64,000 nt of DNA from Verrucomicrobiota bacterium (GTDB lineage: Bacteria; Verrucomicrobiota; Verrucomicrobiia; Limisphaerales; Palsa-1400): NCBI GenBank assembly GCA_049510745.1, contig JBEKYR010000004.1:166429-230428 (forward strand). The letters run 5' to 3'. Positions 12,001 through 30,000 of the stretch are shown here, one piece after another (the first letter of the stretch is position 1; each line of letters begins with the position of its first letter). The position numbers are program-made.

Positions 12001-15000
12001 TTCCCGGCCCAGTGGATGTGTCACTTCTTTGTCACTCCTGGAGGCAAGCCCACGTTTCGGCAACCTTGCCTGAACTACTCTTTCCCCATCGCCTGTGCCA
12101 AGACGCGAGTGTGGGCCACCTGGTTTGAGGATTGGAATCACTATCCCTTCTTCTTCGACGGGCCGCGAACCATGTTCCACTTCGAAAAATCCTTCATCCC
12201 GAATGGTGAAGCCCTGATTTACTTCCTTCAACCCGCCGCCGCCGACCTTTATTCGCCGTGCGAAATCGTCCAGCAGGCTTTGGGCCGGGAGAAGGCGATG
12301 GTGCTTTTTGATTTCGACGCCAATCGCCTGCGCAAGTTGAAATACTCCACGCCCGACGAGTTCATGTATGACCGGCCGGTGTGCGCCACCACCACGCGTC
12401 TTTTCAGGATCAAGAAGGAGGACAAAGCCACGGTGGGTGTGAATCTGGCCACCCATCTCTACGAGTTTATCCGGGAAATCAGGCTGCGCGTTGACGATTA
12501 CGGCGCCTTTTTCGCCCAAACCCAAGACTACCTGGAAAGCCAGAAGAAGGCCCAACCGGAACTGAACGATTACCTGGAGGAGATGGAAGCGATGGTGGCC
12601 GAAGCCCAAGTCAAATCCCGCGAGATTTACGCGACCAGCCTGCCCGCCGTGCAAGAAAAAACCGAGGCGATCAAGAAGCTCCTGCTGGAAGGAACAGGAG
12701 ATGGGTTCAGTTTTGGGATTTTGGATTGCAGACCCACCGCCGGTTCGCAAGATGACACCTGCCGCCGCTGCAGTCGATCGGTCATGCGGTTGGTGCAAAC
12801 AGCCGCTCTGAAGTGTGGCGATTCCCCTCAAAAAGCCGTCATCGCCAAGCATATTTGGGATCAATCGCGCGTCATTTTGCGGCAACCGACGCGTTGGGAA
12901 TCGCGACGGACCTTGTGGTTCTTTGAGCCGTGAACCAAACCGTCATCAGTTTGTCCATGAACCTTGCGCCCACGCCGACCTTTCCACCTGAAATGAGAAT
13001 CGAACCTTTTCTCCCGTCGTCTCGCCGGAGCGCGCAGCGCGGCGCTTCCCAACTGCCGTCTTGTCCAACGGCCGCCCTCTGCTGTTCCGTTCTGGCTGCG
13101 ATGGTTTTGACCGGATGCAGCCCAGCGACCGAGCCTTCACCAACCGCGGCCAGTTCCGTCGTGAAGACCAAGTGTGGCAGTGACATGGTCGCCATTCCCG
13201 CGGGCCAATTCACGATGGGGTCCAAAGAGGGGCCGATTGACGTGAAGCCGGAACACGTGGTCAGAATTGACGCGTTTCTCATGGATCAGCGGGAGATCAC
13301 GCAGGCAGCTTATGAAGCGGTCACAGGCAGCAACCCCTCGCGGCGCAAAAATCCCAAGAACCCAGTCGAGCAAGTCACCTGGTCCGCCGCGGCGCGATTC
13401 TGCAATGCCCGGTCGCTGCAAGAGGGCCTGACGCCCTGCTATGACACGAACACCTGGGAGTGCGATTTTTCAGCCACTGGATACCGGCTGCCCACCGAAG
13501 CGGAATGGGAGTACGCGTGCCGCGCGGGCAGCACCACTCAATATTACTATGGCGATAATCCGGAGGAACTGAAATCCCATGCATGGTTCGAGGGCAACTC
13601 CGAAGGTCATCCGCATCCGGTTGCCCAGCGCAAGCCCAACGCCTGGAACCTCTTCGACATGGCCGGAAACGTGTGGGAATGGTGCAACGATTATTACGGC
13701 GCCAAGTACTATCGCCAAAGCCCCGCAGACAATCCCCATGGGCCGAAGGAAGGCGAAAAGCGCGTGCTCAGAGGCGGAGCCTGGTCCGCCAGCTCCGCCA
13801 ATTGCACTTCCTGGGTGCGGAACTGTGACGAGGCTGGTTTGACCGACATCTGCCTGACCGGGGATTCCAACGGCTTCCGGTGCGTGCGCAAGAAGTGAGC
13901 TTGGGATCGCTCGCCAGTGCGGTGACGTTTGGCGGGTGGTTTGGCGGCCGTATAGGCGCTTGCATGAATCGGCGGGTCATGGCCCAGAACATCGATAGAT
14001 TTGTTGCGCCTTTCCGAGAGCGCGACAACGGTTCCTGGGAAAGCGAATACTGGGGCAAATGGTTCACCTCCGCAGCCTTCGGTTATCTTTATCAGCCCTC
14101 GGCGGAACACAAGGCCAAGATTGACCAGGCCGTGCGCGCCCTGCTTCAGACCCAGAGCCCGGACGGACAGATCACACCCGGTGATCCTCGCGGATGATTG
14201 TGCGGCAGCCGCCGGCCTGGCTGGAACGCCAGTTCTTGGGCGGTTTCGTCTTCTTGAGTTGGTCCAATTGACCGATTTCCTTGAGACGCAGGTAGATGAG
14301 TTGCCAGGCACAAGGGCGGGCCGGGTCCACTTCGCAGTGGTCTTCACGGGAGCCGCTGCACGGGCCATTGAGCATGCGTTTGGCACAGCGGGTGACCGGG
14401 CAAATGCCGCCGTAGAGGTGGAGCACACAGGCGCCACACGCGCCACATTTTTCCGCCCAGACTCCGCGTTCCTCGAGGATGCCGATGAATGCGGTGTCCA
14501 AGCCGGCATAGACCGGTTTGCCGCTGTAACGCTCGGCCAGGGCCTGCACGCCGGCGCCGCAACCCAGGGACAAGACGGCGTCGTGGTTCTTGATGGCCTC
14601 GGCCGCTTGCTCGAGGAAGACGTTGTCGCACTGGCGTTCGATGGTGGCTTCATCGACTTCGAGGGGGAGGCCTTTGAGTTTTGCCGCCATGCGCAACGCG
14701 GAGGCGATGATGCTGACTTCGCGTTGTCCGCCGGCCAGGCAGACGGTGACGCAGGTGCCACAACCGAGCAAGAGCAGCTTTCGGTGTTTTTCCACTATGG
14801 CCAGCAGGTCAGGGATGTTCTTTCTTTGTGCAACGATCATGAGCAGTTCTCCGGTTTGGGCGAACCATCGGGTTTGATGGGGTTCGGGCCCAGTTTGCGA
14901 ATGGTTTGGACCATGTCGGTAATCGTATCCGCCAGGGGCCGGGCCATGGCGGCGGAAATGTTGACCATGCGGATGCGGTCCTTTTCGAGGCCGATTTCCA

Positions 15001-27000: not shown

Positions 27001-30000
27001 GTAAAAATCGGGATGGGTCTCGCGCAGCTTCTGGGCCTCCGCTGCGCTTTCCAGGGGGAACACGCCGGCCAGAATCGCGGCCTTCTTGGTGAACCCCGCC
27101 TGGCGAACGGCCTCCAGCCATTGGCTGAACGCGTCGAGGTCGAAGACCGCATGGGTTTGAATGAACCGGGCGCCCGCCTCGATTTTGCTGTAGAGCCTGA
27201 GCAGGTTGAGTTCGAGCGGCTTCAGGAAGGGGTTGGCCACCGCTCCCACCAGCATCGAGAACGGCCCGTCAATCTTCGTCCCGTCGGCCAGCAGGCCCTG
27301 CTCGCACATCCGGGTGGTTGTCTCGACAAACTGCGTGGAATCGATGTCGAAAACGTTGGTGGCTTCCGCACAGCCGATGAGCGTCTGGTGATAGCCGGAC
27401 AAACAAAGCACATTCTTGATCCCGAGGCTGGCGGCTCCCAGCAAATCCGACTGGAGGGCGATGCGGTTCCGGTCACGGGTGACCATTTGAAGGACCGGCT
27501 CGAGGCCCATTTTGAGCGCGACGACCGAGGCGGCCAGGGAGGACATCGCCACCCCGTGCTGGTTGTCGCCCATGTTGACCGCTGTGAGCTTGCCGCCCAA
27601 GGATTTCAAGGCCGCTTCCGTGGCGGATTGAGTCGCCGTGGTCCGCGGCGCGTGCTCGGCGGTGAGGATGAACTCTCCGTTGTCGATTTTTCCGGCGAGT
27701 TGGCTGTCCACTTTCATGCCACCATGCGTTCCGGTGTGTTCATCGCACCGCCGGGGGTGAGATCCGGCGGCAGTCTTCTGACCTGTTCGATGAACTGCTT
27801 GATTTCGTTACAGGCCTGCTGGGCGCCTCCTGCCGCGCACTCAATGACGGCCATCCGTCCCGCCCCGAATCCGATTTCCTCGAGCAACGATTCGACTGCC
27901 TGGGCGCGCCTATGGGCGCGCAGGCTGCCCTCGAAGTGACGGCACTCCTTCGTCTTGCAAGCCACAATTACCACGCCGTCCATGCCCGTTTCCAGGGCTT
28001 TAACCAGGTAGGGCACATCCACCTTTCCAGAGCAGGGCAGACCGATGGTCTTGACCGTGTCTCCGCCCAGATCTCCCCAGGAACCGGCCACCCGGCCCGC
28101 GTCCAAATTGTTCGAGCAGTAAAAGACGCAAGTCTTTAGGCGGCGCTTGTCTCCCCTGGCGGAGAGGGCTGGGGAGAGCTGGCCGCCCGGTTCCACATTC
28201 GGATTCCGCAACCGGTTCACGCACCGCTGGAGGACCGACACATCCTGCCGACACGCGGCCAATTCCTCAGCGCCCATGAGCCCGTCTTTGGCCATTTGGC
28301 AATGCAGCGCCTCGACGAGGGCGATGACTTCGCGCAGCGCGGCTGATTCGTCATCCACAGCGGAGCAGGCCTCCTCTAAACCCCCGCAGGCCAAATCCAT
28401 TCTTATGATCTCGTCCCACACCGCATCCAAGGTTGCGTGCAAGGCGAAGAGCAAACGCGGACAACTCGCTTCGATAGCCCTCAAGTGCTCATCGACAGTC
28501 GGGTCAAGCTTGCTCATAATGCGTTATCCGAGACTTCAACTCATGCGCAATGATTTACTGGCGCGCGGGCATTCTGCGCGAGCAACGCCCACCCGTAAAG
28601 GAAAAACGTCCGAGCCCTGCAAACATGAAAGAACGCCCGGAAACATTGTTGGCCCTGCTCTTTATCAGTTGGTCGTGGGTTCAACTCCCCGCCGGGGCAC
28701 CATCTCATCAACCACTTGCGAAAGCTCCCGGTGTTACTGACCCGCCGAGTAGTATCAGATTCTGTTGAGGACGATATTCGGGGCGAAACGATGAAAGATT
28801 GACGCGAACTTCATGGAAAGATGAATGTCGGTTTAGTTAACATTTGTCGGTTTAGTTAACACCTTTGGCGGGCTGGACTGGGGCGGATGGCGGCAAGGTT
28901 TGAATTGGATCATGTTTTATTTCAGCCACTTACATTGGTTCTGTCCAATTTCTGGTCACCTTGGCTCGAATCTAGCTGGAAGAAAGCAGCGATGCGCGAA
29001 ACAGATTGAGTCAACGAATTTGTTATGAAAAGTTTCAGCATTCACGAGTGGGCAGGGGTGATTCTGCTGGTTTCGAGTGGTTTTTCCCTCGCCAACGGTT
29101 CGCTGGTTGCGGCAGACCCGCCGACCCTCTTTCTGGCGGGCCTGACGGTAGCGGGCATGTTTACTTGTGAGTATTTGCTGAGAGGCTGCCGCTGCCGCTG
29201 CCGTTGCCGCCGCCGCCCCCCGGCTCGGCTCGTTGTCGGCGGGCATTGGCGAAATTGATTTCCTTTTTACGGCGCGCCCGGCCCGAAAACGGCGTCGAAT
29301 TTCGCCTGGACGTTCCGCGCGTGGAATTCGAGCGAGCAGAGCTTTTCCAGTTCGCCTTCGGCAAAATGTTTCTTGACATCCGGGTCGAGCCGCAATTGCC
29401 GCAGAAAATCCGCCTCCTCCCGCCCGGCGTGTTTGGCCTGCCAGGTTTGCTGGGCGTTGCGCTGCACCAACTCGTAGGCCGCCTCGCGCGTCAGCCCCTT
29501 GCGGATCAGCGCCAGCAGCACCGTCTGCGAGTTCCACAGGCCGAGCGACAACCCCAGGTTGCGCTTCATGTTTTCGGGATAAACAATCAGGCCCCCGGTC
29601 AATTTCCGCAGCGTCACCAGCATGTAATCCAGCAGCGTGCAGGAGTCGGGAAAAATGATCCGCTCGACCGAGCTGTGGCTGATGTCCCGCTCGTGCCAGA
29701 GGGCGACGTTTTCCAGGGCGGCGACGGCGTTGCCGCGCACCACGCGCGCCAGGCCGGTCAGGCGTTCGCCGGTGATCGGGTTGCGCTTGTGCGGCATCGA
29801 GCTGGAACCTTTTTGTCCCGGCGCGAAAAACTCCTCGGCTTCGAGAACTTCGGTGCGCTGCAAATGGCGGAACTCGGTCGCCCAGCGTTCGATGCTGGCG
29901 GCGATCAACGCCAAAACGCCGATGAACTCGGCGTGCAAATCGCGCGGCACCACCTGGGTGGCGATGGGCGCCGGCCGCAGGCCCAGCTTCTCGCAAACCG

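What a model noticed while it worked through the whole genome (the two positions that open the first line are those of the whole stretch)
14172..28517. Ten-gene operon wiring a split glutamate synthase (active + degenerate FMN subunit) into an HdrABC-MvhD-MetFV complex, c [...]
mvhD-metF-gltS2-gltS1-amidotransferase/GXGXG-hdrC-hdrB-hdrA(L)-mvhD-metV is one tightly packed operon. It places a split glutamate synthase inside the electron-bifurcating MetFV-HdrABC-MvhD module, with one catalytic and one degenerate FMN subunit. This suggests glutamate synthesis coupled to Hdr/MetF electron flow. The genome also has ordinary gltBD.
Evidence so far: Gaps between the ten genes are -23 to +17 nt. At least 508 stretches in species genomes encode the degenerate subunit. 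The best 80 loci come from Verrucomicrobiota, Planctomycetota, Desulfobacterota, Spirochaetota, Chloroflexota, Bacteroidota and others. In 45 loci longer than 19 kb: MetF, both Glt subunits and the amidotransferase in 45, HdrABC in 44; 4 of the 80 loci show a permuted order. The amidotransferase motif GGCGV is invariant in 67 of 67; QGAKPG is present in 75 of 75 Glt1 and 0 of 80 Glt2, while Glt2 keeps its Cys cluster motif. Searches 69, 76, 78, 79 and 194 and passages of five papers describe no such operon.
(Added by a program. Inside this text positions count along the whole contig: contig position 166,429 is position 1 of the stretch shown here. "Call 12" and the like, gene names such as g00115 and contig names such as C1 are that model's own, and its searches are not shown. 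The text may have been shortened before it was handed on; [...] marks where a part breaks off. The agent that wrote the report below was given it as the finding of a first reader that could run no searches.)

Follow-up and report, generated by a model that had tools for sequence, protein, structure and literature searches.

The report
Hdr-wired three-subunit glutamate synthase operon
Ten adjacent genes in an anaerobic bacterium appear to encode an undescribed build of the enzyme that puts nitrogen into glutamate, plugged into an electron-splitting module whose folate enzyme looks disabled, which hints at a new, energy-saving way of assimilating nitrogen.

Summary
The ten-gene operon is real and conserved. 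This scan reported it before on other genomes (8 notes). I tested three further points.

(1) The core is a three-subunit glutamate synthase: a glutaminase/beta-helix protein, an FMN subunit (Glt1) and its dead twin (Glt2). Glt2 keeps the segment that GltB carries in its central domain and is predicted to bind Glt1 (0.85, best control 0.18). In Desulfobacterota, 75 of 86 carriers show no canonical or archaeal-type glutamate synthase.

(2) The electron input is interchangeable: MvhD'-MetVF, MvhD' alone, a GlcD-like FAD oxidase, or Hdr.

(3) The MetF here lacks the folate-anchoring Asp120 (0 of 74; Tyr in 69). All 20 Hdr-free, Glt-linked MetF keep it.

Best reading: NAD(P)H enters at HdrL, which keeps both bifurcation signatures, and electrons pass through MvhD/MetV/MetF*/MvhD' to 2-iminoglutarate. 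Bifurcation is plausible but untested. No paper found in nine searches describes this. New variant of a known kind; interest 0.75.

The parts
27714..28517 (-). mvhD': divergent MvhD-like [2Fe-2S] adaptor; domain at residues ~125-250, true start may be later
   Evidence: PF02662. Four Cys align with MvhD. An MvhD'-type gene precedes the Glt genes in 35 of 40 fetched Desulfobacterota loci.
26815..27717 (-). metF*: MetVF-type MetF with altered folate site (Glu21 kept; Tyr109 at the Asp120 position; His189 at the Gln183 position)
   Evidence: residue roles from passages of PMC9900621 and PMC11094777.
25405..26802 (-). glt2: non-catalytic paralogue of the FMN subunit; 2x[4Fe-4S] domain plus 4-Cys cluster kept; residues 115-162 match the GltB central-domain segment around Met479 and residues 504-516
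23859..25427 (-). glt1: archaeal-type FMN/synthase subunit with ferredoxin domain; FMN and 2-oxoglutarate loops intact; central-type segment lost
21232..23862 (-). gat: class II (Ntn) glutaminase with 34-residue propeptide, fused to the GXGXG beta-helix
   Evidence: Cys35 aligns to Cys1 of GltB; both domains superpose on GltB together, Z 20-22, ~580 residues, rmsd 4.3-4.9. Cys35, Arg61, Arg235, Asn261, Gly262, Asp286 invariant.
20651..21214 (-). hdrC
19785..20654 (-). hdrB with two CCG domains
15287..19783 (-). hdrL (1498 aa): two HdrA-type FAD modules plus an inserted GltD-like NAD(P)H domain (~157-663); bifurcation signature Glu697/Lys750 and Glu1199/Lys1240
   Evidence: window copy only; signature as defined in passages of PMC9430772.
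14837..15283 (-). mvhD, canonical
14172..14840 (-). metV, Fe-S subunit
   Evidence: PF12225.

Best explanation
The operon encodes an anaerobic glutamate synthase (Gln + 2-oxoglutarate + 2e- -> 2 Glu) with its own electron supply. SHOWN in sequence or model: Gat supplies the glutaminase and beta-helix; Glt1 supplies the FMN site; Glt2 lacks the FMN and substrate loops but keeps three Fe-S sites and the segment that forms GltB's central-domain tunnel loop. Together the three chains rebuild the four-domain GltB. INFERRED: NAD(P)H is oxidised at the GltD-like insert of HdrL, which stands in for the beta subunit. Electrons pass HdrA FAD -> MvhD -> MetV/MetF* -> MvhD' -> ferredoxin domains of Glt2/Glt1 -> FMN -> 2-iminoglutarate. 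MetF* no longer turns over folate and acts as a scaffold or flavin relay. The ancestral, Hdr-free form probably draws electrons from methyl-THF oxidation. SPECULATIVE (about 0.35 on its own): HdrL bifurcates, using the glutamate-synthase reaction as the high-potential branch to reduce ferredoxin or another low-potential carrier.
For: Catalytic residues are invariant and the Gat model has GltB geometry. Glt1-Glt2 complex: score 0.85, best control 0.18, runs agree in at least 83% of contacts, partner pLDDT at least 83; the mark was reached by 116 of 157 solved complexes and 2 of 215 mismatches. Glt2-Glt1 occurs fused in dead-then-active order, and FAD oxidase-Glt2-Glt1-Gat occurs as one 3016-aa chain. 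glt2-glt1-gat is contiguous in 39 of 40 fetched Desulfobacterota loci; glnA lies in 18 of 40 and inside the operon in L124, L125, L127, L128. amtB, PII, glnD, glnE, nrpR and gdh recur nearby. 75 of 86 Glt2 genomes show neither gltB nor the archaeal type; overlap 11 against 36 expected. MetF Asp is absent in 74 of 74 operon copies and 119 of 120 top homologues read Tyr, while 20 of 20 Hdr-free Glt-linked copies keep it; 17 of those 18 genomes have acetyl-CoA synthase. The folate site decayed separately in at least two Hdr-linked lineages, and metF is absent while metV stays in 4 of 40 loci. NADH to this couple gives about -51 kJ/mol and stays negative with ferredoxin at -0.50 V (glutamate-couple values recalled).
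Against: No contact between Hdr/MvhD/MetV and the Glt subunits was modelled or measured. HdrB and HdrC are kept, so a disulfide could be the real high-potential acceptor. L154 has hdrCBA and a MetF with all three residues; the four HdrA-only loci keep Asp (3) or Glu (1). 34 of 49 window-type genomes, plus this one, also have gltB, so this version is usually accessory. No nitrogenase or Rnf was found in this 94% complete genome, so a sink for reduced ferredoxin is not evident. The exclusion statistic ignores relatedness. The complex score may reflect likeness to solved GltB. Tyr at Asp120 has not been tested; only Asp120Asn is reported (kcat 0.3%, PMC11094777 passage).
Confidence: 0.6

Rival explanations
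1. Two co-regulated but separate machines. The Glt core takes electrons from free ferredoxin through MvhD', and HdrABC-L/MvhD/MetVF* is an independent NAD(P)H:disulfide/ferredoxin oxidoreductase that only supplies the pool.
For: The core exists with MvhD' alone (7 of 40 loci) or with no input gene found by my references (soil loci such as L174-L202). HdrB and HdrC are intact. In S. ovata MetVF and Hdr interact but do not co-purify tightly (PMC9430772 passage).
Against: The genes are interleaved with overlapping codons and stay together through circular permutation. A folate-dead MetF is kept in 74 of 74 full-length cases, which fits a structural role.
Confidence: 0.17
2. MetF* is still an active reductase, on folate or on another imine-forming substrate, so the complex couples one-carbon flux to glutamate synthesis.
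For: Glu21 (the Glu28 position) is kept in 74 of 74, and Tyr109-His110-Gln111 is strongly conserved rather than drifting. 26 of 49 window-type genomes have acetyl-CoA synthase.
Against: Asp120 is described as invariant and catalytically essential (PMC9900621 passage). The sister clade lost Glu, Asp and Gln together (8 rows). 23 of 49 genomes, plus this one, show no acetyl-CoA synthase.
Confidence: 0.11
3. The complex runs catabolically, oxidising glutamate at the FMN site and confurcating those electrons with reduced ferredoxin to make NADH.
For: It usually coexists with gltB. RNA-library contigs of relatives cover the whole operon.
Against: The glutaminase residues are invariant. The neighbours are assimilatory (glnA, amtB, PII, nrpR), and the core replaces other glutamate synthases in Desulfobacterota.
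Confidence: 0.08
4. N-methylglutamate synthase or another amine-transferring variant.
For: MgsABC uses the same three domain types (PMC6237917 passages). Glt1 is 34% identical to an MgsC over 345 residues.
Against: Glt1 matches the archaeal-type subunit along its full length, including the ferredoxin domain and Cys cluster that this MgsC lacks. It keeps residues 314-316 of the GltB gate loop. Gat has a propeptide, whereas MgsA starts at Met-Cys. No mgd genes recur among clustered neighbours; the neighbouring GS genes were not typed as glnA versus gmaS.
Confidence: 0.04

Closest known systems
Type IV MTHFR, MetFV-HdrCBA-MvhD of Moorella thermoacetica and Sporomusa ovata (passages of PMC8760232, PMC9430772, PMC6085437)
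   Same: hdrC-hdrB-hdrA-mvhD-metV order; large HdrA with NAD(P)H insert; Glu/Lys pairs at 697/750 and 1199/1240 (Moorella: 696/750 and 1204/1246).
   Different: MetF lacks the folate-anchoring Asp; a second MvhD and three Glt genes are added; Wood-Ljungdahl pathway not required.
Bacterial NADPH glutamate synthase GltBD (PDB 1ea0, 2vdc, 6s6s, 7mfm; review PMC8097209, passages)
   Same: Glutaminase, tunnel-loop segment, FMN barrel and beta-helix all present; a GltD-like domain is present inside HdrL.
   Different: Three chains in a different order; the central-domain role is played by a full-length Fe-S-bearing twin of the FMN subunit; extra ferredoxin domains.
Archaeal-type split glutamate synthase (example: Monoglobus WP_320690862)
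   Same: Ferredoxin-FMN subunit with a 4-Cys cluster; closely related glutaminase.
   Different: There one FMN subunit carries both the tunnel segment and the FMN site; here they are divided between Glt2 and Glt1, and the glutaminase is fused to GXGXG.
HdrL of Desulfobacterium autotrophicum and type III HdrA (passages of PMC2702500, PMC12054007)
   Same: HdrA with an inserted GltD-like domain, followed by mvhD.
   Different: No link to GltB-type domains appears in the passages read.
N-methylglutamate synthase MgsABC (passages of PMC6237917)
   Same: Separate amidotransferase, GXGXG and FMN proteins.
   Different: No twin subunit, no ferredoxin domain or Cys cluster in the MgsC compared, encoded with gmaS and mgd.

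Membership tests
Glutamate synthase (GltS) | Ntn glutaminase with Cys1 after processing and the Gln-binding residues | tested here: met
   Cys35 aligns to residue 1 of GltB; invariant residues in 29 of 29. Processing itself is inferred.
Glutamate synthase (GltS) | FMN barrel with 2-oxoglutarate and FMN loops and an Fe-S cluster | tested here: met
   Glt1: PF01645 304 bits, aligned to 2vdc 853-1170. Four Cys rather than the three of GltB.
Glutamate synthase (GltS) | Central-domain segment lining the ammonia tunnel | tested here: inconclusive
   Glt2 115-162 aligns with it in a multiple alignment and through the archaeal-type subunit. Direct profile tests did not pick it up: hhalign probability 21 on another region; HMM missed it.
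Glutamate synthase (GltS) | C-terminal GXGXG beta-helix | tested here: met
   PF01493 at 630-800 of Gat; superposes in the GltB position.
Glutamate synthase (GltS) | Measured Gln:2-oxoglutarate amidotransferase activity | not testable with these tools
   Needs an assay.
Canonical GltBD | Single ~1500-aa alpha chain plus separate GltD | tested here: not met
   Three chains; GltD-like domain sits inside HdrL.
Type IV MTHFR (MetFV-HdrCBA-MvhD) | All six subunit genes clustered | tested here: met
Type IV MTHFR (MetFV-HdrCBA-MvhD) | MetF with the pterin-anchoring Asp120 and Gln183 | tested here: not met
   Tyr109 and His189 in the window; Asp in 0 of 74, Gln in 25 of 74.
Type IV MTHFR (MetFV-HdrCBA-MvhD) | Host has the Wood-Ljungdahl pathway | tested here: not met
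   PF03598 not found in this genome (94% complete); found in 26 of 49 relatives.
Bifurcating HdrA | Glu356/Lys409 equivalents at the FAD | tested here: met
   Both modules of the window copy, against 5odc. Conservation across homologues not counted.
Bifurcating HdrA | Coupled reduction of a high- and a low-potential acceptor | not testable with these tools
   Needs an assay.
N-methylglutamate synthase | mgsABC architecture with gmaS and mgd | tested here: not met
   Architecture differs; no mgd among recurring neighbours. One MgsC compared.

The most novel reading that the evidence does not exclude
The first electron-bifurcating glutamate synthase. It arose when a methyl-THF-driven heterodimeric glutamate synthase, common in Wood-Ljungdahl Desulfobacterota, was docked onto HdrABC-L and its MetF folate site was disabled. 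The Glt2/Glt1 pair is a living picture of how GltB's central domain came from a duplicated FMN barrel.
Probability: 0.3. Interest if true: 0.9.

Novelty: new variant of a known kind. Interest (0 to 1): 0.75.

Why it matters
The core was found in 86 of 301 sampled Desulfobacterota genomes and is usually their only recognisable glutamate synthase, so a main route of nitrogen assimilation in sediment anaerobes may be undescribed and mis-annotated (sources name Glt2 'ferredoxin'). The variants predict new electron donors for the reaction: methyl-THF, a 2-hydroxyacid, or NADH with bifurcation. That would tie nitrogen assimilation to energy conservation. The pair also makes testable a question left open in PMC8097209: whether the central domain came from a duplicated FMN barrel.

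Tried and rejected
1. Glt2 as a direct structural match of the central domain: its model fits the FMN domain (788-1164, Z 21.7, rmsd 3.5, 305 aligned). The phmmer hit to the central region was weak (E 0.017). The likeness is the N-terminal segment and the role, not the whole fold.

2. Common versus separate origin of Glt2 and the central domain: the best trees join Glt1 with Glt2 (SH-aLRT 97 and 96), but Glt2 plus central as one clade is not rejected (p-AU 0.51). 48 of 64 rows were used and one MgsC served as outgroup. Undecided.

3. Link to nitrogen fixation or Rnf: neither found in this genome; relatives not searched.

4. Regulatory signals: no sigma-54 excess (31 matches, 38 expected), no Rfam match upstream, no tRNA.

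5. Expression: contigs from four RNA runs of four studies, mostly 90-99% alike, cover every bin of the operon, and some bridge gene junctions. These are relatives' contigs and may include DNA, so they do not show transcription or one transcript.

6. A cultured carrier: none named among the best 120 hits. Cluster members of the fusion proteins could not be looked up, so their taxa are unknown.

7. Conservation of HdrL, HdrB, HdrC and MetV residues across homologues was not counted.

8. Literature: searches and passages of 11 papers gave no description of the operon or the heterodimer. Subscription papers (Hdr-module reviews, Mock 2014, proteomics of sulfate reducers) and supplements were not seen and could list it.
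Full report
OBSERVATION. The window holds ten minus-strand genes from 28517 to 14172: mvhD', metF, glt2, glt1, gat, hdrC, hdrB, hdrL, mvhD, metV. Gaps run from -23 to +17 nt. A genome scan with Glt2 gave 508 relatives, of which the best 80 loci were kept. All 45 loci over 19 kb hold metF, glt1 and gat, and 44 hold hdrABC. Four loci are circular permutations. 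Eight earlier notes of this scan describe the same operon or its parts on other genomes. I saw them after forming my reading; they are not independent support.

THE CORE IS A REBUILT GltB. Gat keeps Cys35 after a 34-residue leader, with Arg61, Arg235, Asn261, Gly262 and Asp286 invariant in 29 of 29 aligned copies. Its model (mean pLDDT 70) superposes on both the N-terminal glutaminase and the C-terminal beta-helix of GltB in one fit (Z 20-22, about 580 residues, rmsd 4.3-4.9 for six of seven GltB entries), with Cys35 on Cys1. Glt1 aligns to the FMN domain of 2vdc (853-1170) with the flavin and substrate loops invariant. Glt2 is a full-length paralogue of Glt1 (hhalign probability 99.9). It has lost those loops but keeps both ferredoxin-type clusters and the C-terminal four-Cys motif.

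WHAT Glt2 DOES. Its most conserved stretch is residues 115-162. An archaeal-type subunit (Monoglobus WP_320690862) carries both this stretch and the FMN site; Glt2 matches the first part and Glt1 the second. In a joint alignment the stretch is shared by archaeal-type subunits, GltB central domains and Glt2, and is lost in Glt1 and in GltB FMN domains. It maps to A. brasilense Met479 and residues 504-516. PMC8097209 (passages) says the central domain lines the ammonia tunnel, that Met479 may control electron transfer to FMN, and that the domain's origin is open. That the 504-516 loop is the tunnel gate is recalled. Glt2 has Ala at the Met479 position. The predicted Glt1-Glt2 complex scores 0.85 against a best control of 0.18, with at least 83% shared contacts and partner pLDDT at least 83; the mark was reached by 116 of 157 solved complexes and 2 of 215 mismatches, and likeness to solved GltB may help. 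The interface uses Glt2 115-140 against Glt1 364-385, and Glt1's cluster loop 440-454 is also in it. Natural Glt2-Glt1 fusions exist in dead-then-active order: five full-length proteins among 150 representatives and nine loci. Against this: direct central-domain profiles did not detect the stretch in Glt2, the Glt2 model fits the FMN domain best, and trees cannot separate common origin from convergence.

IT BEHAVES LIKE A GLUTAMATE SYNTHASE ACROSS GENOMES. Glt2 was found in 86 of 301 sampled genomes of the phylum of L015 (Desulfobacterota). Canonical gltB was in 60 and the archaeal type in 71. Only 11 of the 86 carry either, against 36 expected; 116 of the other 215 do (relatedness not corrected). 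I fetched 40 of the 86 neighbourhoods, chosen for contig room and spread of score. glt2-glt1-gat is contiguous in 39; the other ends at a contig edge. glnA is within 18, and amtB, PII, glnD, glnE, nrpR, carAB and isocitrate dehydrogenase recur. In four metagenome loci glnA sits between glt1 and gat. Upstream of the first 80 loci, nrpR occurs in 8, amtB in 5, PII in 4, and gdh, glnA and gltBD in 3 each.

THE ELECTRON INPUT IS MODULAR. Among the 40 loci the input is mvhD'-metV-metF in 18, mvhD' alone in 7, a GlcD-like FAD oxidase in 5, mvhD'-metV without metF in 4, a downstream hdrA-mvhD-metV-metF in 4, and an upstream hdr block in 2. The oxidase is also fused to Glt2, and in one 3016-aa protein to the whole core. 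Its substrate is unknown; all NCBIfam scores are below cut-off.

THE MetF HERE IS ALTERED. Position 109 is the invariant, catalytically essential Asp120 of E. coli MTHFR (PMC9900621 passages; Asp120Asn lowers kcat to 0.3%, PMC11094777 passages). I mapped it by alignment with the genome's canonical MetF and MetVF-type paralogues. It is Tyr in 69, His in 3, Thr in 1, Phe in 1 and Asp in 0 of 74 operon copies; the Gln183 position is His in 39, Gln in 25, Ser in 7, other in 3; Glu28 is kept in all. All 20 Glt-linked MetF with no hdr in the fetched stretch keep Asp (18 genome loci, 2 metagenome loci), and 17 of the 18 genomes have acetyl-CoA synthase. On a tree of 49 MetF, 22 rows form a group (support 94) that holds the copies from hdr-bearing operons. 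It contains the Tyr/His clade, a clade of 8 that lost all three residues (three of these loci end before hdr could be seen), two other decayed copies, and L154, which keeps all three. The site therefore decayed at least twice. The four HdrA-only loci keep Asp in 3 and Glu in 1 (truncated, not in the tree). This genome has a separate canonical metF and no detected acetyl-CoA synthase; 26 of 49 window-type genomes have one.

HdrL. It carries a GltD-like insert, the type that oxidises NADH in Moorella (PMC8760232 and PMC9430772 passages). Both HdrA modules of the window copy keep the Glu/Lys pair used to mark bifurcating flavins. NADH versus NADPH was not resolved.

MECHANISM. Shown: the parts, residues and distributions above. 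Inferred: Hdr-free operons oxidise methyl-THF (-0.20 V, PMC9430772 passage) and pass the electrons through MetV and MvhD' to the Glt clusters, about -28 kJ/mol. In the window's version HdrL supplies them from NAD(P)H, about -51 kJ/mol, and MetF* is kept as scaffold or relay (the glutamate couple and glutamine hydrolysis values are recalled). Speculative: the surplus drives bifurcation, still -16 kJ/mol with ferredoxin at -0.50 V. Since 34 of 49 window-type genomes also have gltB, the Hdr version looks like an accessory, condition-specific enzyme, which would fit an energy-saving role. The unexplained parts are the intact HdrBC and the lack of a detected nitrogenase or Rnf here.

LITERATURE. 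Nine searches were read as listings. Passages were read from PMC5736913, PMC2702500, PMC8760232, PMC12054007, PMC9430772, PMC8097209, PMC9900621, PMC6085437, PMC9012536, PMC6237917 and PMC11094777. None of these describes the operon, the heterodimer or the altered MetF. No whole text or supplement was read, and subscription journals were not searchable.

VERDICT. Real, widespread and apparently undescribed in the searchable literature. It works like a glutamate synthase and is not a member of canonical GltBD or of the type IV MTHFRs. New variant of a known kind, interest 0.75; 0.9 if bifurcation or methyl-THF as donor is shown.

Noticed in passing
proteins P0148, P0153, P0251; loci L124-L128, L238-L242: GlcD-like FAD oxidase with Fe-S domain fused to or upstream of Glt2; P0251 (3016 aa) holds oxidase, Glt2, Glt1, glutaminase and GXGXG in one chain. 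Suggests a 2-hydroxyacid-driven glutamate synthase.
   Followed up: partly
L205-L212, L214, L215, L220, L223, L225, L226, L228, L229, L232, L233: Hdr-free mvhD'-metV-metF-glt2-glt1-gat operons with intact MetF in genomes with acetyl-CoA synthase: candidate methyl-THF-dependent glutamate synthase.
   Followed up: partly
L148, L149, L153, L161, L164, L165, L173, L179: A second clade whose MetF lost Glu28, Asp120 and Gln183 together; hdrCBA follows in the five loci long enough to show it.
   Followed up: partly
L039:6339-7970 and relatives (also L141, L206, L215, L219-L222): Another, 544-aa PF01645 family recurs beside these operons, often next to glnA; function not examined.
   Followed up: no
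window 28826-28861: Two identical 17-nt direct repeats 19 nt apart, about 310 nt upstream of mvhD'; possible regulator site.
   Followed up: no
window ~28640-28720: A stretch that by eye resembles the 3' half of a tRNA gene on the + strand; ARAGORN and Rfam found nothing. Could be an old integration site.
   Followed up: partly
G000:C33:50100-54000: A second hdrC-hdrB-hdrA-mvhD cluster in the same genome.
   Followed up: no
L011:5584-7866 and 13 other loci: A GAF-containing sigma-54 activator family lies upstream of the operon in 14 of 80 loci.
   Followed up: no
12 genomes (for example G253, G305, G162): Full-length GltB with a much lower central-domain score (about 190-220 bits against 300-410): a divergent GltB subfamily in Desulfobacterota.
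   Followed up: no
window 7853-13898: A + strand cluster (acyltransferase-like membrane protein by eye, two unknown proteins, FGE-sulfatase protein) converges on the operon's end; not linked to it in relatives.
   Followed up: no
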